Part shown: positions 791-56,502 of the stretch, piece by piece
Numbering within the stretch: the first letter of the stretch is position 1
Layout: each line of letters starts with the position of its first letter
Assembly (NCBI GenBank): GCA_964016885.1
Contig: OZ024747.1
Span: 18,476,001 to 18,540,000 of the forward strand
DNA: 64,000 bases
Origin: Eledone cirrhosa
Taxonomy: Eukaryota
Reading direction: 5' to 3'
The notes under the pieces: generated by a model
The model's database searches: none
Told to the model about the DNA's origin: nothing
The model's input: only the letters and a program-made list of their open reading frames with translations
Position numbers and translations under genes: made by a program

Positions 791-997
791 ATATAAATTT
801 GAGGGACTTCTGTCCACCCGTCCATCACACAATGTGTATGTGTGTTTGTGTGAATGTATTTGTGTGTAAAAGGAAGGAAAGGGATACACTCATATATGTC
901 TCTAACTTAAAAACAGTGACATACACTCACACATGTCTCTAAATTAAGAACACCGACAAACTCGCGCATGCACACATACACACTGTCCTATTACAAC

Positions 998-1700
998 TCA
1001 AGAGCTTTGGTCCGGGCAAACATCCTCTCAATTTTGGAGCCGTCTGGGTTGTCCAGAATTGATGGGAAAAGACTTGATGGTCTTACTCTGTGCTCCTGGT
1101 CAAGAGGCAGGTGCCTTACCTGGGACGTCACAGTTAGTGACTCTTTTGCTTCTTCCCTCATCCTGGATGCAGCGGTAAGGGCGAGAGCTACATCATCCGC
1201 AGCTGAACGGAACAACAGCCTAAAATACTGTGTTCTGTCAACTAACTACATTATCCAGCCTGTGGCGTTCGAGACGTTTGGGAGAATCGGGCTACTGACA
1301 GCGAGATTCTTATCTTCACTGGCGGCTCGCCAAACAGCGGTAAGTGGTGATGCTCGTGAGGGCACTTGGTTATTCCAGCACCTCAGCCTCGCCATTACCC
1401 CAGGTAACGCTGCGAGCCTGCTGACTTGCCTAAAAAATTATTAGAGAGGTTTCCCAGTGCTCCTCGCTATATTGCTATCTTTTGCTCTGGTAGCGTCTCG
1501 TTTATCCATTCTTTCGCCTGCATATTGTTCTGTGTGGTCTAAGATGTGGGTATTACGTGCTTGTGTATTTTTTCTCTTTCCTTTTCCTTTGTATATATTA
1601 TATTTATTAGTGTTTTCGATCTGTAATCATTATATTAAATTTTTATAAAAATGAGTTTTAAAAAAAGAGTTAAACTGTGTTGTTAATAAATAAATAAAAA
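998..1700 (+). mobile_element. CRE-like non-LTR retrotransposon 3' fragment (restriction-like endonuclease domain plus 3' UTR)
   Basis: ORF 968-1444 has EPSGLSRIDGKRLDG...WDVTV...KY...PVAFETFG...FQHLSLAI..GNA, the RLE C-terminus of CRE-type elements. An A-rich tail lies near 1685-1700. A partial tandem duplicate lies at about 1851-2230. Confidence 0.8.
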
Positions 1701-3525: not shown

Positions 3526-3589
<64 letters not shown>

Positions 3590-3685
3590 GGAGGTGAGTT
3601 TTATTGTAGTACAATAAAGCAATCAATATGTTGATTTAAAACTGCACTATCCACAAGTGTTTTTAACCTTCATATCATGTCTTCC

Positions 3686-3756
3686 TATTTTATCTGATGA
3701 AAACACAAATGTTATTGCATGATGATATTTGTTTTTGAAATGCGCATAATAAAATA
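3686..3756 (+). ncRNA. Type I hammerhead ribozyme, family A
   Basis: tattttat-CTGATGA-[aaacacaaatgttatt gcat gatgatatttgttttt]-GAAA-tgcgca-TA-ataaaata. Stem I is 8 bp, stem III is palindromic, AUA site. It lies in a (TA)n-flanked element at 3587-3788. Confidence 0.85.
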
Positions 3757-3811
3757 CATGGAACTCTTTTAACCATCTTTTGATCTTATATATATATATA
3801 TATATATATAT

Positions 3812-8806: not shown

Positions 8807-9695
8807 ATTGTCGAACCTCATTAACATAATATTGTCCAACCTCATTAACATAAAATTATCTTACCTCACTAACATAAAATTATTTTACCTCATTAACATA
8901 ATATTGACCAACCTCGTTAACATATTATTGTCCAACCTCATTAACATAATATTTTCCTTCCTCATTAACATAATATTGTCCAATCTCATTAACATAAAAT
9001 TATGTTACCTCATTAACATAAAATTATCTTACCTCATTAACATAATATTGACCAACCTCATTAACATAAAATTATCTTTTCTCATTAACATAAAATTATT
9101 TTACCTCATTAACATAAGATTATCTTATCTCATTAACATAAAGCTATCTTACCTCATTAACATAAACGTATTTTACCTCAATAACATAATATTGTCCAAC
9201 CTCATTAACATAAAATTATCTTACCTCATTAACATAAAATTATCTTACCTCATTAACATAAAATTATTTTACCTCAATAACATAATATTGTCCAACCTCA
9301 TAAACATAAAATTATCTTACCTCATTAACATAAGATTATTTTACCTCACTAACTTAAAATTATCTTACCTCATTAACATAAAATTATCTTACCTCATTAA
9401 CATAAAATTATCTTACCTCATTAATATAAAATTATTTTACCTCATTAACATAATATTGTCCAACGTCATTAACATTATATTTTCCTACCTCATTAACATA
9501 AAACTATCTTACCTCATTAACATAAAATTATTTTACCTCATTAACATAAAATTATCTTACCTCATTAACATAAAATTATTTTACCTCATTAACATAATAT
9601 TGTCCAACCTCATTAACATAAGATTGTCCAACCACATTAACCTAAAATAATCTTACCTCATTAACATAATATTGTCAACCTCATTAACATAACAT
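8807..9695. repeat. 24-bp minisatellite (about 36 units)
   Basis: Unit ctcattaacataaaattatcttac, with variant ctcattaacataatattgtccaac. Confidence 0.95.
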
Positions 9696-10402
9696 TATTG
9701 GGATAGGAAAAATATCTGCATTTCAATATTACTCAATGTAAAATGTAATACATGAAAAGTCGGAAAACATTAATAATATACATTTGTAATATATCAAATC
9801 AAAATTACATTATTAAATCTTATTCTTATTTTGTTTCTTGTAAATAATTTTTTTCAAAATATCAATTCAAATCTTTTGTGAATAGGCATCATATGTTGTC
9901 ATTTATCTATGGTTTAAATTTCATATACATAGAAGGGAAAACATTTCAGCGGGGATTTGTGCCTCCGGGGAACGCTAATAGGGGGTTTAACCCCCATTAG
10001 GGTGTCTTAATATTATTGAAATTTGTTGAAATTTTGTGAATAGGCATCATATGTTGGCATTTACCTATGGTTTAAATTTCATATAAATCGAAATGAAAAA
10101 ACTTTCAGCGGGGGTTTGTGCCTCAGGGAACCCTTTGATTACAATGAAATATACTTATCCAAGTACCCTGTGCCAATGTAGTTTCAGAATATATATGGTT
10201 ATGGGGATCTATCTCCAAAACCATAGGAGTAGTTCGTGAACAAACAAACAGACAGGAACACAACTTTATATATATATATATATATATAGTAATAATAATA
10301 AATTTGAAGACTAAAATCCAAAGAGGGCTCGATAAGGATAAATATATATCAAATATATAAGAAAATCTGTTATTTTAATAAATATATATATATATATATA
10401 TA

Positions 10403-10785: not shown

Positions 10786-11025
10786 TATTATACTTGGGGA
10801 GGGTCATATTTGTGTAATATTGCCAGAATTAATAACAGAACACACTCACTGTTTGGTTGGTTTTCGCTTTTCGCTTCTGTGTTATAAAATGTGTTATTTC
10901 GCTTATAAAATGTGTTATTTCGAAATAAACACAGAAGCGAAAAGCGAAAACCAACCAAACAGTGAGTGTGTTCTGTTATTAATTCTGGCAATATTACACA
11001 AATATGACCCTCCCCAAGTATAATA
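10786..11025. mobile_element. Fold-back element family D (98-bp arms)
   Basis: Arms 10786-10883 and 10928-11025. The loop holds a duplicated ataaaatgtgttatttcg. Related ends at 59776-59826 and about 8050-8100. Confidence 0.85.
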
Positions 11026-14504: not shown

Positions 14505-15140
14505 AGTAGTTCCTGTCTGTTTGTTTGTTTGTTTGTTTGTTCACGAACTCCTATGGTTTTGGAGATAGACCCCCGTAACCATATATATTCTGAAACTACA
14601 TTTCCCAGGGTACTTGGATAAGAATATTTAATTTTAATCAAGGGGTTCCTCGGGGGCACGAACCCCCGGTGAAAGTTTTTTCCCTTCCATTTATATGAAA
14701 TTTAAACCATAGGTAAATGAGTAAGATATGATGCCTATTTACAAAATTTCAGCAAAATTCAATAATATTGAGACACCCTTATGGGGGTTAAACGCCCTAT
14801 AGTGAAAATTTGGGAAGCCCATAACTTGAGTATTGGAACTTTGAATTTCTAATTTGAAAATAATGCTTTACACAAAAATGAAATGATCAAGTTTTGAATT
14901 GATATTTTGAAAGAAATTATTCAAAAGAAACAAAATAAGAATAAGATTTAATAATGTAATTTTGATTTGATATATTACAAAAAATAATGTTTTCCAATTT
15001 TTCATGCATTACATTTTACATTGAGTAATATTGAAATGCAGATATTTTCTCCATAAATTATATCACTGATTTAAAATCAATCATCATTTTCCTACAAAAA
15101 AAAATTTGTGAAACACAGTAAGGCGCGGGTAATTCGGCTA

Positions 15141-15480: not shown

Positions 15481-15965
15481 ATCGTCAGTCGATTGACTTT
15501 CGTCAAATCGGACCGAGGAAACGATGTTTCCATGGGTCTTTCTAATTGCTAATACTATCTATCGCGGTCGCAACTCCAGGTAGAAGGAGCAACGAGAAAT
15601 AAAGTGTCTTGCTCAAGGACATAACGTATCACATGGTCGGGGAATCGAAATCACAACCTCACGATTGCGATTCCAATTCTCTTACCACTCACCCACGTGC
15701 ATGTTTATATATGTAAATGTACACCCCCCCTCCATATATATATATATGTCTGTGAAGGCGTGTGGCGGAGTGGTTAGGGAATTGGATTCGCAATCGTAAG
15801 GTTGTGAGTTCGATTCCTGGACCAGGCGATGCGTTATGTCCTTGAGCAAGACACTTTATTTCACGTTGCTCCTTCTACCTGGAGTTGCGACCGATAGATA
15901 GTATTAGCAATTGGAAAGACCAACGGAAACATTGTTCCCTCGGTCCGATTTGACGAAAGTCGATC
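15481..15965. mobile_element. Inverted pair of tRNA-derived SINE family 2 (CORE-like)
   Basis: 15481-15700 (-) and 15753-15965 (+) share GTGGTTAG...GTGAGTTCGATTCC...GTCCTTGAGCAAGACACTTTATTTC and a common tail. Other copies at about 15984, 37982 and 42925. Confidence 0.8.
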
Positions 15966-16357
15966 GTTCCTATATGTCTGTGTGAAGGTGCATGGCTTAG
16001 TGGTTAGATTATTGAGTTTGCAATCGAAAGACTGTGAGTTCAATTCTCGGACCTGGTGATGTGTTGTTTCCTTGAGCAAGACACTTTATTTCACGTTGCT
16101 CCAGTTTACTCAGCTGTAGAAATGAGATGATAGGACTGGGGTCCCTATCATTAAACCACCCAAGACACCTCCAACGAGATATACTTTGGAGGAGGCCAGC
16201 TAAACCTGCATAGGTGTGAGCTGTCACACGCACACACATATATATATATATGATTTCTACCGAATGAAACAGTTCTAGTCCTGTAGAAGCCTCTCTATAT
16301 GTATACTCTGCTATGTGTTGAGTACCTTACTTACTGTGGTTACCCCTGATTGAACCT

Positions 16358-16434
<77 letters not shown>

Positions 16435-16763: not shown

Positions 16764-18030
16764 TACTAGCCGAATTACCCGCGCCTTGCTGCGTTTCACA
16801 ACCTTTTTTTGTAAGAAAATGATGATTGATTTTAAATATCATTTATGGAGAAAAACTCTGCATTTCAATATTACTCAATGTAAAATGTAATGCATAGAAA
16901 ATTGGAAAACATTATTTTTGGTGGATTGGCAGTATCGGTAGAGGGTCGGATGCCATACTTTGACGCATAGAATTACGGTTCTTGCCATTCTGAGTTCAAA
17001 TCCCGCCGAGGTTAACTTTGCCTTTCATCCTCACGGGGTCGATGAAATAAAGTACCAGTAATGCACTGGCCTTGTGCCAAAAGTAGAAACAATTATTTTT
17101 GTAATATATCAAATCAAAATTACATTATTAAATCTTATTCTTATTTTGTTTCTTGTAAATAACTTTTTTCAAAATATAAATTTTAAACTTTTGTGAATAG
17201 GCATCATAAGTTGTCATTTACCTATGGTTTATGGTTTAAATTTTATATAAATCGAAGGGAATACATTTTCAGCGGGGGTTTGTGCCTCCGGGGAACCCTA
17301 ATGGGGGTTAAACCTCCTATTAGGGTGTCTTAATATTATTGAAATTTGCTGAAATTTTGTGAATAAGCATCATACTTTGTCATTTACCGATGGTTTAAAT
17401 TTCATGTAAAACGAAGGGAAAACATTTTCAGCGGGGGTTTCTGCCTGCAGCAAACCCTAATAGGGGTTGAACCCCCATTAGGGTGTCTTAATATTATTGA
17501 AATTTGCTGAAATTTTGTGAATAAGCATCATACTTTGTCATTTACCGATGGTTTAAATTTCATGTAAAACGAAGGGAAAACATTTTCAGCGGGGGTTTCT
17601 GCCTGCAGCAAACCCTAATAGGGGTTGAACCCCCATTAGGGTGTCTTAATATTATTGAAATTTGCTGAAATTTTGTGAATAAGCATCATACTTTGTCATT
17701 TACCGATGGTTTAAATTTCATGTAAAACGAAGGGAAAACATTTTCAGCGGGGGTTTCTGCCTGCAGCAAACCCTAATAGGGGTTGAACCCCCATTAGGGT
17801 GTCTTAATATTATTGAAATTTGCTGAAATTTTGTCAATAGGCAGGTGTTTTTGTCAATAGCAGGTGTTTTCAGCGGGCATTTTGTACCCCCGGGGAACCC
17901 TTTGATTAAAATGAAATATACTTATCCAAGTATCCTGGGCAATGTAGTTTCAGAATACATATGGTTATGGGTGTGTATCTCCAAAACCATAGGTGTAGTT
18001 CGTGAACAAACAGACAGGAATACAACTTTA
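16764..18030 (+). mobile_element. Helentron/Helitron-like non-autonomous element with internal 158-bp tandem repeat and nested SINE
   Basis: TACTAGCCGAATTACCCGCGC start. The internal repeat recurs at 17341, 17499, 17657 and 17815, each unit with hairpin accctaataggggttgaacccccattagggt. A SINE is inserted at 16920-17096. Confidence 0.65.
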
Positions 18031-18046
18031 TATATATATATATATA

Positions 18047-19029
18047 AGTGGTAACACAACATTTAGTTCACTATACCGAGAACAATCGTTTCACCTTAGC
18101 GGATCTTCAGCTCGTACCGGTCATAGTTATACGGAACAGGAATAACAACTGTATGAACGCGCATGCGCAGAAACGGTCACTTCACCCAAGTGATACAAAG
18201 CCACAGGCGAAAGGTGTAAGGGAGATAACTACAAAAGTCCGGAAAAGATGTTCGAGTTGATAAGAAAATTAGAATGTTGTTGTTATTCAATCAGGAGCTT
18301 TGTAGTTATGTAAGAGGTGTTTCCAGACATGTGGACAACGTGAGAAGATTTCATTTCTTGAATTTAGGCAATCGCTATTGCGTAATCTCCTTAGAATATT
18401 TATCCTTTCTTCAATACACAGTCCACAAGACGGATTGCCCGTAGCGTATGGCTTGGACTTAGTGATGGCTTTCCATTGAATGGAGTAGTCTATACCTGAG
18501 ACCTTGAGGGACCATACGTGGCTCACGAGTTTCGTGGATGATCATTTGTCCGGGTACCTAAAGGTCGACTGATGGTTCAGGAAGCGTTCCTTAAATCGAC
18601 CCTCCGCCATACCCACATAGGATTTGGCCTCCTGTGGTTGATTTGGTCGGTTGGAAGTGACCGCAGCTTCATAAACTACAGCGGGTGTGTTGCATTGCTG
18701 TTGAAGGGGACAAGCTTCAGGCTTTCGGCAAGAGCATCCTGGTGGGGTGCCGCTCTTAAGACTCTTAGGTAATGTGGGCCTTCGTATTCTTAGCGCAGGA
18801 GTACCCTAGTTTTACTCTGTCTGTTAAAGATGGAGCAGTATTTGTGAACAATGGGAAAGTATTTATATATTGCGTAATCTCCTTAGAATATATTTCTAAT
18901 ATATTCTAAGGAGATTACGCAATAACGTTTGCCTAAATTCAAGATATGAAATCTTCTCACGTTGTCCACATCTCTGGAAACACCTCTTGCATAACTACAA
19001 AGCTCCGGATTGAATAACAACAAAATTCT
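18047..19029 (-). mobile_element. Penelope-like element remnant (GIY-YIG C-terminus, HHR-bearing tail, inverted 5' segment)
   Basis: 18287-18526 encodes HVWSLK...IQWKAI..SKPY....CGLCIEERINI...LNSRNEIFSRCPH..KHLL. Near 18790-18870 it reads YKYFPIVHKYCSIFNR and, after a frameshift, VKLGYSCAKN. Both are typical of PLE proteins. 18900-19029 is an inverted copy of about 18271-18400. The 3' end abuts (TA)n. Confidence 0.85.
18077..18114 (-). ncRNA. Minimal hammerhead ribozyme in the PLE 3' tail
   Basis: cgag-CTGAAGA-[tcc gctaa ggt]-GAAA-cgattg-TT-ctcg. A related copy at about 59885-59922 has palindromic stem III caattg but a mutated core. Confidence 0.75.
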
Positions 19030-20810
19030 GCCGAGGTTAACTTTGCCTTTCATCCTTACGGGGTCGATAAAATAAAGTACCAGTAATGCACTGGAGTAAA
19101 TGCTGACCTTGTGCCAAAAGTAGAAACAATTATTACACTGACGGCACTAATTTCGTTACTGCATTAGGGCTTGATGAACACAACTACAAGGATATGGTCC
19201 GAACTTGGAAGAGCCGAACTCCCATTGTCATCTCCCCCATCTCTCTCGCCCTCCCCATCTCTCTGTATGGTGAGCAAATGGGGTCCCATGTGCTGGCCAC
19301 ATACGAAGGTATTTTTCACAATTTCCACCAATCAAATTCCACCCACAAGTCATTAATCAACCCGAGGTAAAGTTATGGTAGAGGAGCCTTTGTCCATGGC
19401 GTCGCACAAAGAATCGAACTCCAAAGGAGTCCCTTGTTTACGATGTAAAATGTTTAACTATACAGCCATGCTTCCCTTTCCCGTGGCCCACCAAACTATC
19501 TAGGTTGGTTTTTGTTCCGGACTTGTTACAATGTAATTACTTCTATGGTAGTTCATTTGATCACTTAGTACACCTCTTTGGTAGATTAACACATTTAATA
19601 CACTTAAACCCCTTTAACATTATTGCTACCTTGTATTAAACTATATAAACTGTCTATAAATAAATATAGTGTCAATATAACACTTGGCTCAAGCAGATTC
19701 CAAAGAAAAAAGTAATAAAGAAATACGTAAGGAAAGAGAAAATGAAATCTTTGTAGACATTAAGTAAATGTCACGGCGAAGCAGCCTGCATTGATTCCTT
19801 CTAAATCCCAATGGGAGTTTAGAAGTGGTTCTCTTGATAAATATAGCGTTTATATTCTCATATTTATTAATCTTTTTCGTATCAGCATTTACATAACACA
19901 TATTTTAATTCTCCCTCAAGTATATCAAATAAACGTGTCAAATGTAAGATTTGCGAAAAATATCAACATTGCGTGCACGTATGTGTGTATTTATCATCGC
20001 CTTTTAACGTCTATTTTCCTTGCTTGCACATATTTCACACGAATGTTCGTGTTTATGTTTCAGTGAGTGTGTATACATGTATGTTGTTCGTGTTGCTATT
20101 TAGTCCCAACTCACCGCTGACTCGGCTATGATCAAAGAGATTCAAGTTGCGACTATCCTTATCTCATTCTGTACATTTAGAATTATATTGGTTAATGTAT
20201 TCTTCCTTTTTATAGACAAGAGTGTGATTTTAGGGAATTTTGTGGGTATTTCAAGCAATTCCAGACGCTGCCAACCTCTAAAACCTCAAACGGGGAGTAC
20301 TATGAAAACAAGTGCCCCAAAAGGGGGAGAAATGAGGCAAAATGGGGAGATTTTACATAATTGTTTCTATTTTTGGCACAAGGCCAGCGATTACCCAAGT
20401 GTATTACTGGTGATTTATTTTATCGACCCCGTAAGGATGAAAGGCAAAGTTAACCTCGGCGGTATTTGAACTCAGACCATAAAGGGCCATAACTCTTTGC
20501 TGCAAAGCATGGCGTCAGACCCTCTACCGATATTGCCAATCCACCGGGGAGATTTTACATAATGAAAGCTATACCCATTTTTACGTCCGACGGGGAGAAT
20601 TGACAGGTCTGCAATTCGTAAGGTTTTGAGTTCGATGCCCTTTTTTTTTAAACAGTAGAGAAATTTATATATATATATATATATAATCTGCCAATAAATG
20701 TGAAGACTAAAATCCCAAGACGGCTCGATAAGGATAAATATATATCAGATATATAGAAGATCCCGTTAAGGGTGAAAGCAGTGATTCTTTGCTTAAACTT
20801 TAATCTGTTA

Positions 20811-20859
<49 letters not shown>

Positions 20860-27943: not shown

Positions 27944-27978
<35 letters not shown>

Positions 27979-28040
27979 ATATATATATATATATATATAT
28001 AATCCAAAAAAAAACAAAAAAAAAAATATATATATATATA

Positions 28041-29910
28041 TTGGAATAAATGCTCTGAAATAGCGATATATATGTGAATATAGACATAGAATATTCGAAA
28101 ATATTCTGTATGTTTATAATAAACATTTTGAAGACCTAATCGCTATAGAATAGAATACGTCACGTATTACAATTAGATTCTCGATAAAAGCAAGGGAAGT
28201 AATCTACGCGTTTCATTCTTGTTAGAAATCATCAGGACTACATATCCAGTGCTTTTATCGAGAATGACACAGCTAGAGACTTATAGAATACTTAGCTGTG
28301 TACAGGAACTGGTTTGAAAGAGCGGTTGCCGGTCCGGCAGAAATTAGAAATTGGAATAAATGCTCTGAAATAGCGATATATATGTGAATATAGACATAGA
28401 ATATTCGAAAATATTCTGTATGTTTATAATAAACATTTTGAAGACCTAATCGCTATAGAATAGAATACGTCACGTATTACAATTAGATTCTCGATAAAAG
28501 CAAGGGAAGTAATCTACGCGTTTCATTCTTGTTAGAAATCATCAGGACTACATATCCAGTGCTTTTATCGAGAATGACACAGCTAGAGACTTATAGAATA
28601 CTTAGCTGTGTACAGGAACTGGTTTGAAAGAGCGGTTGCCGGTCCGGCAGAAATTAGAAATTGGAATAAATGCTCTGAAATAGCGATATATATGTGAATA
28701 TAGACATAGAATATTCGAAAATATTCTGTATGTTTATAATAAACATTTTGAAGACCTAATCGCTATAGAATAGAATACGTCACGTATTACAATTAGATTC
28801 TCGATAAAAGCAAGGGAAGTAATCTACGCGTTTCATTCTTGTTAGAAATCATCAGGACTACATATCCAGTGCTTTTATCGAGAATGACACAGCTAGAGAC
28901 TTATAGAATACTTAGCTGTGTACAGGAACTGGTTTGAAAGAGCGGTTGCCGGTCCGGCAGAAATTAGAAATTGGAATAAATGCTCTGAAATAGCGATATA
29001 TATGTGAATATAGACATAGAATATTCGAAAATATTCTGTATGTTTATAATAAACATTTTGAAGACCTAATCGCTATAGAATAGAATAAGTCTCTAGCTGT
29101 GTCATTCTCGATAAAAGCACTGGATATGTAGTCCTGATGATTTCTAACAAGAATGAAACGCGTAGATTACTTCCCTTGCTTTTATCGAGAATCTAATTGT
29201 AATACGTGACGTATTCTATTCTATAGCGATTAGGTCTTCAAAATGTTTATTATAAACATACAGAATATTTTCGAATATTCTATGTCTATATTCACATATA
29301 TATCGCTATTTCAGAGCATTTATTCCAATTTCTAATTTCTGCCGGACCGGCAACCGCTCTTTCAAACCAGTTCCTGTACACAGCTAAGTATTCTATAAGT
29401 CTCTAGCTGTGTCATTCTCGATAAAAGCACTGGATATGTAGTCCTGATGATTTCTAACAAGAATGAAACGCGTAGATTACTTCCCTTGCTTTTATCGAGA
29501 ATCTAATTGTAATACGTGACGTATTCTATTCTATAGCGATTAGGTCTTCAAAATGTTTATTATAAACATACAGAATATTTTCGAATATTCTATGTCTATA
29601 TTCACATATATATCGCTATTTCAGAGCATTTATTCCAATTTCTAATTTCTGCCGGACCGGCAACCGCTCTTTCAAACCAGTTCCTGTACACAGCTAAGTA
29701 TTCTATAAGTCTCTAGCTGTGTCATTCTCGATAAAAGCACTGGATATGTAGTCCTGATGATTTCTAACAAGAATGAAACGCGTAGATTACTTCCCTTGCT
29801 TTTATCGAGAATCTAATTGTAATACGTGACGTATTCTATTCTATAGCGATTAGGTCTTCAAAATGTTTATTATAAACATACAGAATATTTTCGAATATTC
29901 TATGTCTATA
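28041..29910. mobile_element. Retrozyme-like 310-bp tandem array with a central inversion
   Basis: Units start at 28041, 28351, 28661 and 28971 (partial). Orientation flips at 29085-29087 and reverse units continue with period 310 to about 29910. Both ends lie in (TA)n. One HHR per unit. Confidence 0.93.
29104..29192 (+). ncRNA. Type I hammerhead ribozyme of the 310-bp monomer, with extended stem I
   Basis: gtagtc-CTGATGA-[tttct aaca agaat]-GAAA-cgcg-TA-gattac (core 29128-29170, GUA site). A distal 16-bp helix, 29104-29119 with 29177-29192, lies beyond an internal loop. Copies at 29438 and 29748 (+) and at 28199, 28509 and 28819 (-). Confidence 0.92.
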
Positions 29911-29912
29911 TT

Positions 29913-29967
<55 letters not shown>

Positions 29968-30281
29968 TATAATATATATAATATATATTATATATATTAT
30001 ATATATTATATATATATATATATAATATATATATAATATATATAATATATATTATATATATAATATATATAATTGTTTCTACTTTTGGCACGAGGCCAGC
30101 AATTACCCAGTGCATTACTGGTACTTTATTTTATCGACCCCGTAAGGATGAAAGGTAAAGTCAACCTCGGCGGGATTATATATATAATATATATAATAAA
30201 TATAATATATATAATATATATAATAAATATATATACATAATATATATAATATATATGATATATATATATAATATATATATG

Positions 30282-34821: not shown

Positions 34822-35276
34822 TATATGTGTATATATATATAGTAATAATAATGATTTGAAGACCAAAATCCAAAGAGGGCTCGATAAGGATAAATATATA
34901 TCAAATATATAAGAACCCTAGAGCAAATATTTATTAAAATAACAGAATAAAGTAAGCAAAGAATCGTTGTTTTCACCCTTAACGGGATCTTCTGAAACTT
35001 TGCTTAAACTTTAATCTGTTATTTTAATATATATATATATATTTCATTCATTTATATTATTATTTGTCTGACCCGAATTTTCCTGGTCGTTTTTTTCGGC
35101 TGTGCGAGTGATTTTAAACATTGTCTCCGTGTGTTGGTCTTTAAACGATAGTTATAGCTCTGGTTTATCCAAACTATTGAGCCCTTTGCCACGCATTTCG
35201 AAGATTGTGTTTCGTTATTTCGTTGGCCGAAATTCCGATTCTCGATAATTTATTTGTAGATATATATATATATATT

Positions 35277-39139: not shown

Positions 39140-39226
<87 letters not shown>

Positions 39227-39250
39227 CATATATACATACATATATATATA

Positions 39251-39322
<72 letters not shown>

Positions 39323-39361
39323 CATATATATATACATATATATATATATATACATACATAT

Positions 39362-39400
<39 letters not shown>

Positions 39401-39475
39401 CATATATACATACATATATATATATATATATACATACATATATACATACATATATACATACATATATACATACAC

Positions 39476-39523
<48 letters not shown>

Positions 39524-39589
39524 GCATATATACATACATATATATATATATATATACATACATATATACATACATATATACATACATAT

Positions 39590-39642
<53 letters not shown>

Positions 39643-39659
39643 CATATATATATACATAC

Positions 39660-39690
<31 letters not shown>

Positions 39691-39699
39691 CATACATAT

Positions 39700-39750
<51 letters not shown>

Positions 39751-39928
39751 TAAACGGAGAAGGCTATTAGCGATACGCCGACCAATTTCCAACTCACTCA
39801 AAAAACATTAGGAAATACCCGAGTATATTCCCAATTAAACGTTTGGGGTGCTAACTATATTGTATTGTGTGGATAATTGGCTGTATTATTTTATATGAGA
39901 TTTATTAAAGATCTCATTGTATATATAA

Positions 39929-40243
<315 letters not shown>

Positions 40244-40429
40244 TATATATATATATATATATAACGAAGGAAATGTGGTAAGGAACCAGGTGGACCATAA
40301 CGCACCAAAGTACTCAATACTTGAGGTAGTAGAGTGGGTAATAGGAACCAGTAAGACCCCTTTTAGACAGCTGAGCTCAAGCCGTCGAAACGGCTTGAGC
40401 TCAGCTGTCTAAAAGGGGTCTTACTGGTT

Positions 40430-40482
<53 letters not shown>

Positions 40483-40918: not shown

Positions 40919-40949
<31 letters not shown>

Positions 40950-41313
40950 GTAGGAGGTGAGTTTTATTGTAGCACAATAAAGCAATGCAAATATCGGATA
41001 AGTAGCACTCCACATTTTATAGGACTGGGGTATAAATAAAATAAGATCAAAAGATGGTTAAAAGAGTTCCAAGTATTTTATTATGCGCATTTCAAAAACA
41101 AATATCATTATGGGATGATATTTGCGTTCTCATCAGATAAAAATCAAGATATGTTGATTTAAAACTTCACTGCTCACAAAGTGTTTTTTAAGCTTCATAT
41201 CATGTTTCCCTATTTTATCTGATGAGAACGAAAATATCATCCCATGATGATATTTGTTTTTGAAATGCGCATAATAAAATACTTGGAATTCTTTTAACCA
41301 TCTTTTGATCTTA
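40950..41313. mobile_element. Fold-back HHR element family A with two hammerheads
   Basis: HHRs at 41074-41142 (-) and 41211-41281 (+): tattttat-CTGATGA-stem II-GAAA-tgcgca-TA-ataaaata. Unique extension 40950-41040. Confidence 0.88.
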
Positions 41314-41728
41314 TATATATATATATACTCCATCTTTTGATCATATATATATATATATATAGATATAGATAGGTAAATATACACGGGTGTGTATGATTGT
41401 GTATAGAAGATTATATTAATAAGAGGAATTCCAACTTTGTCTGATTTACTCGTTTTATTTACAATCCTTTAAAATATATATAATGGTATTATAATGAAAT
41501 AGTATGATAGAATATATATATATACAAAAAGTTATGAAACGAAAGGAGCTGTGTGGTTACTAAAAACACGGTTTAGGTTGGTGGTTAGCACGGAACAGGA
41601 GGAGAAAGGAAGAAAGGAGTTTCCATCGTCAGCTGTAAATGTTTCTCGAACCGATGTTTCGGCGATGCGTGCGTGTGTGCGAGTGTATGTGTGCGTGTCT
41701 GTATATATATATACATACATATACTCAC

Positions 41729-41857
<129 letters not shown>

Positions 41858-42063
41858 GCAGTAATAAACGAAGCTAAATTTTAAACATTTGACTTATTTA
41901 TTTTACTTTATTTTATATATATATATATATATATATGAAGTATATATACATTTATACAGCTATATATATATATATAAGGTAAGTTATTCCGGGTTGAATC
42001 GGAGGTAACCACAGTAAGTAAGGTACTCAATACATAGCAGAGTATAAAAGTTTTAATATAGAT

Positions 42064-42116
42064 GAGATTCTACAGGACTAGAACTGTTTCATTCTTTAGA
42101 AATCATCAGGAATCCC
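42064..42116 (-). ncRNA. Type I hammerhead ribozyme, family I
   Basis: gggattc-CTGATGA-[tttct aa agaat]-GAAA-cag ttctagtc ctg-TA-gaatctc (GUA site), in element 41978-42116. 5'-truncated copies at about 16251-16341 and 43683-43807 (+). Confidence 0.8.
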
Positions 42117-43433
42117 TGCGTGCGTGTGTGCGAGTGTATGCGTGTGTGTAAAACTAACGTCAGTCTGAAATCGAAAGTTATCATCACAGCAAACTGTCAG
42201 CAACAGGACTGAGGTAGTAGCAGAGAAGCACACACGGTAAAATCGCAGCCGCCACCAACCGTTAGTTTATACGTACATAGCCAATTACACACATCTCACA
42301 GACTCATACACATCTCATAGCTCTTGACAGCTACAATTATACACGAAATATTATAATTTGTATGAATAAAATAAAATAAAATTTCACATAACATAATATA
42401 ATATAATATAATATAATATAATATAATATAATATAATATAACAGTGTAATATGGTGTATCCTGGCACTATTTCTTTGACCGTCATAGATTCGGTTCTTGT
42501 TTTTTTCTTTTTGTGTATAATTTAAGTAGAAGAAAGGGCAAAACATTTCTCAACTGAGGGATCTCTGGAGAAAAGAGGGATACGTTGATGTGTTTGGAAA
42601 GAAAACGGAACAAACACAGGGTAACTGACACAAACTATAAACTTTCGTCCCCTTAATGTTTTTTTAAAAATATTTTTGTAAATTTATATTTATATTATTT
42701 ATTTTGGAGGGGTTTATGCTTAACTTTTATTTATTTTCTTGTACATTCTTTCTTTTTTGTTTCACTTTCTTTAAATTTATCGAATTTCTAAACGACACCC
42801 TAGCATTTACTTCATATTTCTTTCGTTGCATTTCACCTTTATAAGCAAAAAGTTTTCTTATCTACCTATCTCTCTATCTATCTATCTGCCAGTCTGTCTG
42901 CCCCTTCTCTCTCTGTACATAAGGGTATTGTTGGACTTACGATCATAATGTCGTGGGTTCGATTCCTGGGTTGCATGTCGTGTTCTTTAGCAAAACACTT
43001 CATTCCACGTTGCTCCAGTATACTCAGCTGAAAATGAGTACCAGCAATAGCTGGAGGGTTTAACCCTGTGATGGACTGGCGTCCTGTCCAGGGGGGAGTC
43101 TTGTACACTCAGTCGCTTCATTCCATGAAACCTTGATAAGCGCCGGCCAAAGGAGGCTTCTGACTTAAGACAGACTTCAGACTTTCGACACACACACATA
43201 TTTATCTCTACGATATACAGTGGTAGAACCTCCTACTTTACATTCTCTCCTCCTTCACACACATCATGTTCCACTCCCATTCAGTGATTCTCTCACTCAT
43301 TCCCGCTCTTATCTATTCGCTCACCTTTTCGATCAAAGAACTTTTTATGATACATATTTAGTTTCGAGAGATAGATACTCTCTTCTTGTTCTCGTTGGAG
43401 ATTAATTTTTTTTTTTCTAAGCATTTGGACACA

Positions 43434-43615: not shown

Positions 43616-43818
43616 GTAAGTTCTTGCAAGAGACTTTTTTTAATAATTTTTTTTTTTATAAATGTATATATATGTATATATAGATGATTTGTAAAGAATG
43701 AAACAGTTCTAGTCCTGTAGAATCTCATCTATATTAAAACTTTTATACTCTGCAATGTATTGAGTACCTTACTTACTGTGGTTACCTCAGACTCAACCCG
43801 GAATAACGTATATACATA

Positions 43819-43879: not shown

Positions 43880-44182
43880 TAAAATAAGTAAGTCAAATAT
43901 GTAAAATTTGGCTTCGTTTATTATAAATTATAAATTTACTGCTATACATATTTCGGTGACAGCCATCATTGGCTGTGACCTCTTCAGGCAGTCCGAATTG
44001 GTGTGGAAAAGACAGGTATACATGTGTACCTGTCTTTGTATACATGTATACCTGTCTTTTCCACACCAATTCGAACTGCCTGAAGAGGTCACAGCCAATG
44101 ATGGCTGTCACCGAAATTTATATAGAAGTAAATTTATAATTTATAATAAACGAAGCCAGATTTTACATATTTGACTTACTTA

Positions 44183-44187
<5 letters not shown>
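43880..44187. mobile_element. Fold-back HHR element, family B relative, in the integrin intron
   Basis: Arms about 43880-44025 and 44042-44187. HHRs at 43938-43992 (-) and 44075-44129 (+), stem II ggtcacagcca atga tggctgtcacc. Confidence 0.88.
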
Positions 44188-44248
<61 letters not shown>

Positions 44249-54776: not shown

Positions 54777-56502
54777 AAAATGTTCAAGACCCCGACGGCA
54801 GAGCTCAAGCCGTTTCGACGGCTATTTCTGGATCCAGAAAAATCCGTCGAAATGGCTTGAGCTCTGCCGTCGAGGTCTTGAACATTTTCCTATTACCCAC
54901 TCTACTACCCTAAGTATTGAGTACTTTGGTGCGTTATGGTCCACCTGGTTCCTTACCACATTTCCTTCGTTAATTAGGATTTAGCTTCATGCATAGCTGT
55001 ATACAGATATGTATTGAATTTTCGTATTTCTAAAGAAATACGTTATGTTTTTGGATAAACATTTAGAAAGCCGTAACTATGCAAAACACTGGTGCTATCG
55101 CCCTCTGGTGGTGTCCAGCAGAAGCAAGGGGGATAACGGTCAATGCATTTCGAACTTCACTGGTTCTCATCAGCGACTGCATACAAATATAAATGCATTT
55201 TGACGTACATATACGCATACACATAACTGTATGCATAGACACACATATACATACATACATATGCATACATTGATGAGGAGTTTTCAGATCTGGCGCTCAA
55301 GATATACGTTAAGCTTCATACCTGTTATTATTGGAGCTACAGGACATGTACGGACCCATCGGGACCAAAGTATGACTGAACTTGGATTCTTGAAGAAAGA
55401 ACACAGCTCATTCATAACTTACAAATGACCAGGATACCTGGAACCTTCACAATCTGGAAACATTCTTAGGATTTGAAGGATGAATGATTGCATAAGGGTC
55501 GATGAAAATTTCCTTTTCTTTACAGCTTTGCCCCCTGGAAGTTGGCCAGTCAAAAATTAACTCAAAATTGGGAGGTGCATACAGGCACGCACACACACAC
55601 ACGGGCACACACGGGCACATACAGGCACATACACACACAAGCACCCCCGCCCCACACACACACCCACATACACAAACATATACAAACACACAGATGCACA
55701 CATACATTCAGACGCACCCCCTACCGTACATACATACGTAAATACATACACACATACGTAAATACATACATAAATACATACATACATAAATACATACACA
55801 CACACATACATACATACATACATACATACATACATACATACACATGCATGCATGCAGACATGCATACATATCTACCTAGTTGATGTTGTGTAAATTCCAA
55901 TGAGAGAGTTTTGTAACTATGTTAGAAACCGACTCTCTCTCTCTATTGGCAAACATTGGCGAAATTATAAAACCAGAAGAACATATACATAAGTACATAC
56001 ATACATACACACATACATACATACATACATACATACATACACAGATGGTGGCTGCCAACTCGTTTTCGAGTACGGCCACTACTTTATATCCATGTAGGAG
56101 AACCCCTACCTATGCGCTGAACAAGTGTGACTTTTTAGTCCAGCCAACGACTTGAAAACTCTGGTACAAACACTACACTTGTGACAATTATTGACACATA
56201 GCGCTGGGCCCATGGTACCATGTGATGACAAGTGCAGAGAGATCTCCAAATATAAAGCAATGCCTGTGCCATGAAGCTTTTATAGTGAGCAAAGGCACTG
56301 CACAAAGCCAGTCCCACTCTCTTAACCAAGATGATATTTACCAAAAAGAAGAACAAGTCAACATCATTGGATACCATCAAGATTGCAGGTGTTATATCAG
56401 AGTTTTCCTTCTAGAATTCTGCCTTGACAAAGGCTAAGGGGTCATACACACATACACACATACATACATACATACATACATACATACATACATACATACA
56501 TA

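What the first reader, a model, noticed from the sequence alone, without database searches (positions are those of the whole stretch)
29041..29130. Strand flip inside the tandem array mirrors the fold-back elements
Seen: the forward unit stops at tagaATA and the inverted phase starts ATAagtctc, a 3-nt microhomology at 29085-29087. The two halves are head-to-head with 3' ends outward in (TA)n, the same geometry as the short palindromes and the PLE remnant. Inference: arrays and palindromes share one integration mechanism (template switch or twin priming). A read-through transcript would give about 0.8 kb of dsRNA.
Basis: partly seen in the sequence, partly recalled or inferred. Interest (0 to 1): 0.7.

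Follow-up and report, generated by a model that had tools for sequence, protein, structure and literature searches.

The report
Head-to-head ribozyme repeat insertion
A short ribozyme-carrying repeat sits in an animal genome as two back-to-back halves, a known habit of Penelope-like retrotransposons, and neighbouring insertions suggest that both cut DNA strands start copying the RNA.

Summary
The flip is in the assembly as described. A 310-bp unit runs 28040-29087, then inverted 29085-29923, with no mismatches and ATA shared. The unit carries a type I hammerhead-like motif, so this looks like a non-LTR retrozyme array. Both 3' ends point outward into (TA)n, and only the left half has a 26-nt extra 'tail'. 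An inverted 5'-truncated copy, a one-sided tail and (TA)n targeting are published traits of Penelope-like elements (PMC8557442), so the geometry is a known kind. The 3-nt overlap alone is weak (6.7% of random joins). However, the join lies within 3 nt of register with the unit's own 16-bp stem. Of 17 short head-to-head insertions found, 16 have a one-sided tail. Three consist of pieces that do not overlap in sequence, which a fold-back copy cannot make. Best model (0.6): both target strands prime reverse transcription, and the two cDNAs join at a hairpin. Single-strand fold-back fits the array alone equally well. An 839-bp RNA hairpin is possible, but transcription is unshown. Reads could not be checked.

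The parts
27976..28039 (.). Left target: (TA)13, an A-rich stretch, then about 6 TA units
28040..29087 (-). Left half of the array, 3.4 units of 310 bp, sense on minus; RNA 3' end at 28040
28040..28065 (-). 26-nt one-sided 'tail' (unit 1-26) beyond the internal TA site, absent from the right end
29085..29087 (.). Inversion junction, ATA shared (unit 116-118 forward, 245-243 inverted); 7 of the last 9 nt of the inverted strand's end are complementary to the forward phase
29104..29192 (+). The unit's longest inverted repeat: 16-bp arms 29104-29119 and 29177-29192, enclosing the hammerhead; the junction is 3 nt off its register
29128..29170 (+). Type I hammerhead-like motif: stem I 29128-33 with 29165-70, core from 29134, U-U at the base of stem II, minimal palindromic stem III, predicted cut after 29164; repeated in every unit
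   Evidence: motif scan; Rfam HH9, E 0.031, 19.2 bits, below the gathering score of 52; no match at gathering
29085..29923 (+). Right half of the array, 2.7 units, sense on plus; ends at the unit's internal ATATATAT (29916-29923)
29924..30071 (.). Right target: degenerate (TA)n
63140..64000 (-). Second locus of the same unit, cut by the window end; begins at the same internal TA site; one locus-specific substitution in all 3 units
18045..19029 (-). PLE remnant: GIY-YIG-type endonuclease C-terminus 18290-18805 with an in-frame TGA, a hammerhead core at 18110, an inverted piece 18901-19029 and a 27-bp snap-back 18868-18924
3585..3787 (.). Head-to-head insertion of two non-overlapping pieces: 39 nt of tail end plus the tail-less body (family C)
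10289..10385 (.). Head-to-head insertion of two non-overlapping pieces: tail only plus 22 nt from the internal end (family D)
20693..20823 (.). Head-to-head insertion of two non-overlapping pieces: tail only plus 69 nt from the internal end (family D)
40948..41314 (.). Closest short analogue: hammerhead palindrome with the tail on the left and a 70-nt spacer that is the element's own imperfect hairpin, carried by the tail-less arm
40266..40435 (.). Short palindrome centred on an intrinsic 6-bp hairpin; the spacer is on the tail-less arm

Best explanation
The array is a non-autonomous hammerhead-bearing repeat (non-LTR retrozyme type) inserted into (TA)n by the RT/GIY-YIG protein of a Penelope-like element. 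The flip was made during that insertion. Steps: (1, inferred from PMC11167929) the endonuclease nicks both strands of the AT-rich target, and each 3' end primes reverse transcription. (2, inferred) the right end starts at the unit's internal ATATATAT and copies 2.7 units; the left end starts 26 nt (modulo 310) further 3' and copies 3.4 units. The template is a multimeric or circular RNA read through intact ribozyme sites. (3, inferred) the two cDNAs have the same polarity, so they can pair only through an inverted repeat. The 16-bp stem around the hammerhead holds the right cDNA's 3' end (unit 245) beside unit 116-124, where 7 of 9 nt pair, and DNA synthesis seals a head-to-head join. The pairing may be a snap-back within the right cDNA or pairing between the two cDNAs. 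Shown in sequence: the geometry, the one-sided tail, the junction register, and non-overlapping two-piece insertions nearby. Not shown: any enzymatic step, ribozyme activity, transcription, or which PLE family did it.
For: Array anatomy. The junction encloses the longest inverted repeat, within 25 nt and 3 nt of register; 163 of 96,100 position pairs do so (0.17%, criterion chosen after seeing the data). At least 7 of 9 matches occur in 7.6% of pairs with a 3-nt terminal run. The 712-nt mirror arm in this register is 336 = 310 + 26 nt shorter than the left half, so the left half needs its own source. Of 17 short head-to-head insertions found, 16 have one tailed and one tail-less end, and 3 have non-overlapping pieces that need two primings. 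In 4 of 6 palindromes with a usable in-window reference, the spacer lies on the tail-less arm, as it does here in this register. Copies of one family have different centres (family E: 40347, 46354, 54778; D: 31453, 34842; A: 3919, 43885), so inversions arise anew at each insertion. The median spacer of 13 palindromes is 17 nt against about 81 for independent truncation (p 0.010), so the two ends are coupled. A purified PLE protein cleaves and extends both strands and starts at two RNA sites that define the tail (PMC11167929). A Hydra-like PLE endonuclease remnant lies in the window, and Hydra elements insert into (TA)n.
Against: Equilibrium DNA folding of a cDNA ending at unit 245 forms the 16-18-bp stem but leaves the 3' end over 90% unpaired and does not pair it with unit 116-118, which sits in a competing small hairpin. 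Because the units are identical, a second register fits as well: a 180-nt spacer with the right half wholly contained in the left, needing only one priming. In 2 of the 6 informative palindromes the spacer is on the tailed arm (34842-35034, 57233-57590). The motif scan found a hammerhead core in only 4 of the 8 short head-to-head families (A, B, C, F), so grouping them all as PLE-mobilised is partly by geometry. The unit shows no BLAST similarity to the Hydra-like remnant. No target-site duplication can be read in (TA)n. The permutation null pools unrelated families, and the references were seeded from the palindromes themselves.
Confidence: 0.6

Rival explanations
1. Single priming plus fold-back at integration. 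The left cDNA (28040-29087) stops, loops back 180 nt to pair ATA with TAT at 28902-28904, copies itself back to the internal ATATATAT at 28066-28073, and joins the other (TA)n target end there. The tail is the part left uncopied.
For: The right half (839 nt) is exactly the reverse complement of 28066-28904, the longest copy this model allows. The left cDNA ends 3-4 nt into a small hairpin (unit 115-129), a plausible RT stall site. Two short palindromes (34842-35034, 57233-57590) have the spacer on the tailed arm as predicted. Short spacers in general fit fold-back.
Against: The primer would have only 3 terminal pairs (5 of 9) over a 180-nt loop, and folding leaves it unpaired. The model ignores the near-register with the 16-bp stem. 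It cannot produce the 3 non-overlapping insertions or the 4 palindromes with the spacer on the tail-less arm.
Confidence: 0.2
2. Post-integration rearrangement: a replication or repair template switch (fold-back or MMBIR type) duplicated and inverted part of an existing array, re-entering through TA microhomology.
For: The right half is contained in the left in the 180-nt register. (TA)n is self-complementary. Fold-back inversions with short microhomology are a general repair outcome (search listing; passages of bioRxiv 10.1101/2024.12.14.628481).
Against: The copy stops at the same internal site where the second locus starts and includes no flanking DNA. The 17 short head-to-head insertions found also end at element 3' ends in simple repeats, with one-sided tails in 16.
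Confidence: 0.1
3. Artefact: a fold-back or chimeric long read, or a mis-join of two loci with opposite orientation.
For: The arms are 100% identical, so divergence cannot vouch for them. Strong hairpins favour fold-back chimeras (general knowledge). No reads were available.
Against: The 2-kb flanks share no BLAST match with low-complexity masking on (0 hits), whereas a fold-back read retraces its flank. The two outer ends differ by the tail. Both halves carry C at unit 252 where the other locus has T. Seven of 13 short palindromes have diverged arms (82-99.5%), so such structures are genomic here.
Confidence: 0.1

Closest known systems
Inverted 5'-truncated copies and one-sided tails of EN+ Penelope-like elements (PMC8557442; passages and section 11 read)
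   Same: Head-to-head inverted 5'-truncated copy, a tail at one end only, (TA)n targets and a hammerhead near the 3' end. The remnant's endonuclease has the Hydra-clade marks CxCX5C, CxxC and CxH.
   Different: Here the inverted structure is built from a non-coding 310-bp tandem unit with no ORF. The array tail is 26 nt and the short-insertion tails are about 50-140 nt, against the 30-40 bp described. That paper calls the mechanism undefined.
Non-LTR retrozymes of animals (PMC7229834, passages; bioRxiv 10.64898/2026.07.22.740005, first fifth and term search)
   Same: Tandem 150-450-bp units, low GC, one type I hammerhead per unit with a weak helix III; a U-U at the base of helix II as in axolotl HHR_Amex2; proposed mobilisation by PLEs.
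   Different: Neither text describes an array with an internal strand flip (term searches). Expression, self-cleavage and circular RNA were not tested here.
Two-strand, two-start-site TPRT of Poseidon PAc in vitro (PMC11167929; abstract and main text read)
   Same: Nicks and extends both strands of AT-rich DNA; two RT start sites define the tail; uncleaved RNA is the main template.
   Different: A different clade and host. In PAc the start is not homologous to the cut DNA, whereas the right end here has 8 nt of TA homology. That paper does not address how inverted copies are joined.
L1 twin priming and 'dual priming' (PMC2837659, passages)
   Same: Head-to-head join of two cDNAs primed from the two target strands, with little microhomology at the internal junction. 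On one multimeric RNA the array would need only a 65-nt gap.
   Different: No poly(A) and no readable TSD. Twin priming on one monomer gives non-overlapping pieces, while 14 of the 17 short insertions here are palindromes with short spacers.

Membership tests
Non-LTR retrozyme | Tandem units of 150-450 bp with GC below 50% | tested here: met
   310-bp unit; GC 0.30-0.33 in the 1-kb bins covering the array
Non-LTR retrozyme | A type I hammerhead motif in each unit, at least two consecutive units | tested here: met
   Core with closing stem I in all 6 positions of the flipped array. Rfam HH9 gives E 0.031, below gathering, so the call rests on the motif anatomy.
Non-LTR retrozyme | No protein-coding capacity | tested here: met
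   No stop-to-stop frame of 100 aa or more lies within the array, and none of 60 aa or more passed the complexity filter there
Non-LTR retrozyme | Highly self-paired monomer RNA | tested here: met
   MFE -73.7 kcal/mol, z -5.2, 0 of 100 shuffles fold as well
Non-LTR retrozyme | Self-cleavage and accumulation as linear and circular RNA | not testable with these tools
   Needs in vitro transcription and RNA data
PLE-type inverted insertion | Inverted 5'-truncated copy directly at the 5' end | tested here: met
PLE-type inverted insertion | Tail at one end only (30-40 bp as published) | tested here: inconclusive
   A one-sided extension is present but is 26 nt, or 336 nt in the other register
PLE-type inverted insertion | Insertion into (TA)n | tested here: met
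   Both ends, and the second locus; the left run is short
PLE-type inverted insertion | Sequence link to an autonomous PLE (shared pLTR or 3' end) | tested here: inconclusive
   No hit to the Hydra-like remnant; only a 28-nt hammerhead-core match to a dispersed family at 42086-42111. The rest of the genome was not available.
Hydra-clade PLE (remnant 18045-18867) | C-terminal GIY-YIG endonuclease with CxCX5C linker, and CxxC and CxH around the conserved E and N | tested here: met
   Motifs present in the translation and as described. CxCX5C in 132 of 150 relatives. GIY-YIG PF01541 in 1 of 7 relatives scanned (E 2.6e-4, below cut-off) and not in the query. An Atlas cluster carries PF01541 in 18% of members.
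Hydra-clade PLE (remnant 18045-18867) | Upstream RT with RWK and DKT motifs | not testable with these tools
   The remnant is truncated before the RT. In 5 of 6 relatives of 400 aa or more an [YF]xDD lies upstream of the match, and 1 has DKT; Pfam found no RT family in the 5 of them scanned.
Hydra-clade PLE (remnant 18045-18867) | Hammerhead present, and (TA)n target | tested here: met
   Core at 18110 on minus; 3' end at a short TA run near 18030-18046
L1-type twin priming | Two non-overlapping pieces of one RNA, head-to-head, with an internal deletion | tested here: inconclusive
   Met by 3 short insertions (gaps 11, 18 and about 54 nt in family coordinates); not met by the 14 palindromes; undecidable for the array because the units are identical
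L1-type twin priming | Target-site duplication and poly(A) tail | tested here: not met
   No poly(A) at the sense 3' ends; no TSD readable in (TA)n

The most novel reading that the evidence does not exclude
In this genome PLE machinery routinely primes both target strands and joins the two cDNAs on the passenger RNA's own hairpin. Head-to-head products are then about as common as plain ones (19 against 16 found in 64 kb). Ribozyme repeats would thus be a steady source of perfect 50-840-bp hairpins. If the host is an octopus (recalled from the look of its repeats, not shown by any search), they could be a main source of the unusually abundant long dsRNA and ADAR hyper-editing reported for Octopus bimaculoides (PMC5625713). 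Flipping would also silence the ribozymes of the new copy by burying them in the duplex.
Probability: 0.2. Interest if true: 0.75.

Novelty: new variant of a known kind. Interest (0 to 1): 0.45.

Why it matters
How Penelope-like elements make their tandem and inverted structures is stated to be undefined (PMC8557442), and the one in vitro study shows two-strand priming without showing the products (PMC11167929). Young, nearly unmutated insertions like these record both start sites and the join point at single-base resolution, so a genome-wide tally could decide between fold-back, twin priming and two-RNA priming. The array extends the inverted PLE structure to a retrozyme-type repeat, which supports PLE mobilisation of such repeats. 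It would also yield an 839-bp perfect RNA duplex if read through.

Tried and rejected
Rfam at gathering score: 0 matches in the window. At E up to 10 over 29050-29420: 4 matches, of which only HH9 fits the anatomy; MIR161, NAE and Fluoride were taken as chance. The whole-window inverted-repeat finder was swamped by the 2.9-kb (TA)n tract and was replaced by masked self-BLAST (output partly cut). Pfam on 148 of 229 filtered frames (those of 60 aa or more) gave 2 hits, zf-RVT at 56428-57138 and a weak UL20, and none for the PLE remnant. Two word-indexed homolog searches with the remnant found nothing; the full HMMER search then gave 1161 hits at E up to 0.001. Stable pairing of the cDNA 3' end in either register was not predicted. 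The idea that the left cDNA ended at a ribozyme-cut RNA 5' end is not supported by the junction itself: the cut is at unit 165/166 and the left half stops at 118. The inverted pair 41976-42140 / 43683-43807 was first taken for the PLE remnant, but no such frame was seen between them and the second piece starts at a TA run, so they were counted as two single copies. The inverted pair 15490-15966 was left out because it overlaps a different abundant repeat. An A-to-G bias between palindrome arms was not seen (6 of 24 substitutions). Left out of the 13-palindrome statistics: 57233-57590 (composite) and the PLE remnant. Literature searches and term searches in two retrozyme papers found no description of a flipped retrozyme array or of twin priming in PLEs; subscription papers, Repbase and supplements were not seen. 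No eukaryotic genome, read or RNA data were available and no contig collection was searched, so copies outside the window stayed unchecked.

Full report
OBSERVATION. Tandem Repeats Finder reports two abutting arrays of period 310, at 28040-29091 and 29085-29923. Base-by-base comparison with the first unit gives 0 mismatches for the forward phase 28040-29087 and 0 for the inverted phase 29085-29923. The forward phase stops at unit position 118, the inverted phase starts at unit 245, and ATA at 29085-29087 is shared. The overlap alone is weak evidence: 6.7% of all 96,100 blunt forward/inverted joins of this unit show 3 nt or more.

WHAT THE UNIT IS. Each unit holds a type I hammerhead-like motif with a 6-bp stem I, a U-U at the base of stem II, a minimal palindromic stem III and a GUA cut site after 29164. 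Rfam finds nothing at gathering score in the window and gives HH9 at E 0.031 locally, so the identification rests on the anatomy. The motif is enclosed by the unit's longest inverted repeat, 16 bp, and the monomer folds better than all 100 shuffles. Size, GC content, tandem layout and motif match the non-LTR retrozymes of animals (PMC7229834, passages), which are argued to be non-autonomous PLE derivatives (bioRxiv 10.64898/2026.07.22.740005, first of five parts). The motif is on plus in the right half and on minus in the left, so the halves are head-to-head with 3' ends outward. The right half ends at the unit's internal ATATATAT and runs into (TA)n. A second locus at 63140-64000 begins at the same site, to within 2 nt. 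The left half runs 26 nt further: a one-sided tail. All units within a locus are identical, and the second locus carries its own substitution in all 3 units. That fits copying of one template per insertion, although assembly polishing could also do it.

THE NEIGHBOURS. Masked self-BLAST and a search with 15 reference arms taken from the window give 17 short head-to-head insertions, plus the array and the PLE remnant. They also give 16 single copies and the cut-off second array. The references were seeded from the palindromes, so this ratio is biased upward. In 16 of the 17, one end stops straight in (TA)n and the other carries a tail of about 50-140 nt; 43880-44190 has no tail. Fourteen are palindromes. 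For 13 of them the median spacer is 17 nt against about 81 expected from independent truncation (p 0.010, pooled null), 6 have identical arms and 7 have diverged arms. Copies of one family have different centres, so each inversion arose at its own insertion. Three insertions (3585-3787, 10289-10385, 20693-20823) consist of a tail piece joined head-to-head to a piece from further upstream, with no shared sequence. No fold-back copy can make these; short of later deletions, they need two primings. Where an in-window copy shows which arm owns the spacer, it is the tail-less arm in 4 cases (40125, 40347, 41048, 46354) and the tailed arm in 2 (34842, 57233). In 40347 and 41048 the centre is a hairpin intrinsic to the element. 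Junction overlaps run from 0 to 6 nt. A hammerhead core was found by motif scan in 4 of these 8 families.

THE PLE REMNANT. 18290-18805 on minus translates, through one in-frame TGA, to a sequence with CxCX5C, a GIY-YIG-like pair of motifs, CxxC and CxH. These are the marks given for the Hydra clade, which inserts into (TA)n (PMC8557442 section 11). It has 1161 relatives at E up to 0.001; 132 of the best 150 share CxCX5C, and 1 of 7 scanned gives a sub-threshold GIY-YIG match. The Atlas gives a cluster with PF01541 in 18% of members. Pfam does not recognise the remnant itself. Its inverted piece 18901-19029 has a 27-bp snap-back and ends on another repeat, so it shares the orientation but not the outer end. 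The array unit has no detected similarity to it.

THE JUNCTION. Two registers fit because the units are identical. In register B the spacer is 124 nt, belongs to the tail-less right half and is the hammerhead hairpin itself. The right cDNA's end (unit 245) faces unit 116, 3 nt off the register of the 16-bp stem, with 7 of its last 9 nt complementary. Only 163 of 96,100 position pairs enclose the stem that closely (criterion set after the fact), and 7.6% of pairs with a 3-nt run reach 7 of 9. The left half is then 336 = 310 + 26 nt longer than anything the right cDNA could template, so it needs its own priming. In register A the spacer is 180 nt and the right half is an exact copy of 28066-28904, stopping at the internal TA site. 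One priming and one fold-back suffice, but the primer has 5 of 9 pairs. Against both registers, equilibrium DNA folding leaves the 3' end unpaired, and the landing site in register B lies in a small competing hairpin. The stem can tether the end but does not by itself set the join. L1-type twin priming on one multimeric RNA would need a 65-nt gap and is a special case of the two-priming model.

MECHANISM. A purified PLE protein cuts and extends both strands of AT-rich DNA, starts at two RNA sites whose interval is the tail, and mainly uses uncleaved RNA (PMC11167929, abstract and main text). Applied here, the two target ends start at the internal TA site and at the tail site. Each copies several units through intact ribozyme sites, and the two same-polarity cDNAs are joined where the unit's inverted repeat lets them pair. 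I put this at 0.6, single fold-back at 0.2, later rearrangement at 0.1 and artefact at 0.1. Against an artefact: the 2-kb flanks have no BLAST match to each other, the outer ends differ, both halves share an allele absent from the other locus, and diverged palindromes of the same design are nearby. Reads were not available.

dsRNA. Sense transcription from within either half would run away from the junction, so the duplex needs read-through from outside (inference). No host gene was identified in the window, and no RNA data were available.

COMPARISON AND NOVELTY. An inverted 5'-truncated copy, a one-sided tail and (TA)n bias are published PLE traits, with the mechanism called undefined (PMC8557442, passages). 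Twin and dual priming are described for L1 (PMC2837659, passages). Fold-back of TPRT ends is described in bioRxiv 10.1101/2024.12.14.628481 (passages). I found no report of a flipped retrozyme array, or of twin priming in PLEs, in searches or in term searches. Supplements of these papers were not read and may list such cases. The host is not established by any search: the repeats look like an octopus to me from recall, and the Atlas names Mollusca as the commonest phylum of its top cluster on 2 records. The link to cephalopod dsRNA editing (PMC5625713, passages) is therefore speculative. Verdict: a real feature of the assembly, a new variant of a known PLE insertion structure, and useful mainly as a test bed for an open mechanistic question. 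Interest 0.45.

Noticed in passing
window 60240-63139: A 2.9-kb (TA)n tract directly before the second array, with 202 G against 14 C on the top strand, the strand that would be that array's cDNA. It could reflect reiterative copying of the unit's CA/TA start site, but 39143-39752 shows the mirror skew with no array beside it.
   Followed up: partly
window 18868-18924: A 27-bp perfect snap-back with a 3-nt loop at the inner end of the PLE remnant's inverted piece; it suggests a cDNA end that folded back briefly before joining the main cDNA.
   Followed up: partly
window 57233-57590: A composite insertion: a 38-nt tail-less piece, a 44-nt fold-back of the tailed arm, then the tailed arm with a hammerhead core.
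   Followed up: partly
window 41976-42140, 43683-43807, 16250-16363: A dispersed family whose hammerhead core matches the array unit over 28 nt at 93%; possibly a relative of the unit's source element.
   Followed up: partly
window 56428-57138 (+) and 920-1441 (+): C-terminal fragments resembling non-LTR retrotransposons of the restriction-like endonuclease type (recalled). The first has a sub-threshold zf-RVT match; the second has no Pfam hit.
   Followed up: no
window 17189-17843 and 8815-9698: Further tandem arrays with 158-bp and 24-bp periods; no hammerhead core by motif scan. The 158-bp unit also occurs within dispersed copies near 9709-10262 and 14547-15048.
   Followed up: no
window 10883-10928 and 44005-44060: Palindrome centres that contain 21-22-nt local duplications, suggesting repeated slippage or self-priming at the cDNA end before joining.
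   Followed up: no
window 29960-30020: Within the right (TA)n flank, units with a doubled A are followed by units with a doubled T, a small mirror pattern inside the microsatellite.
   Followed up: no
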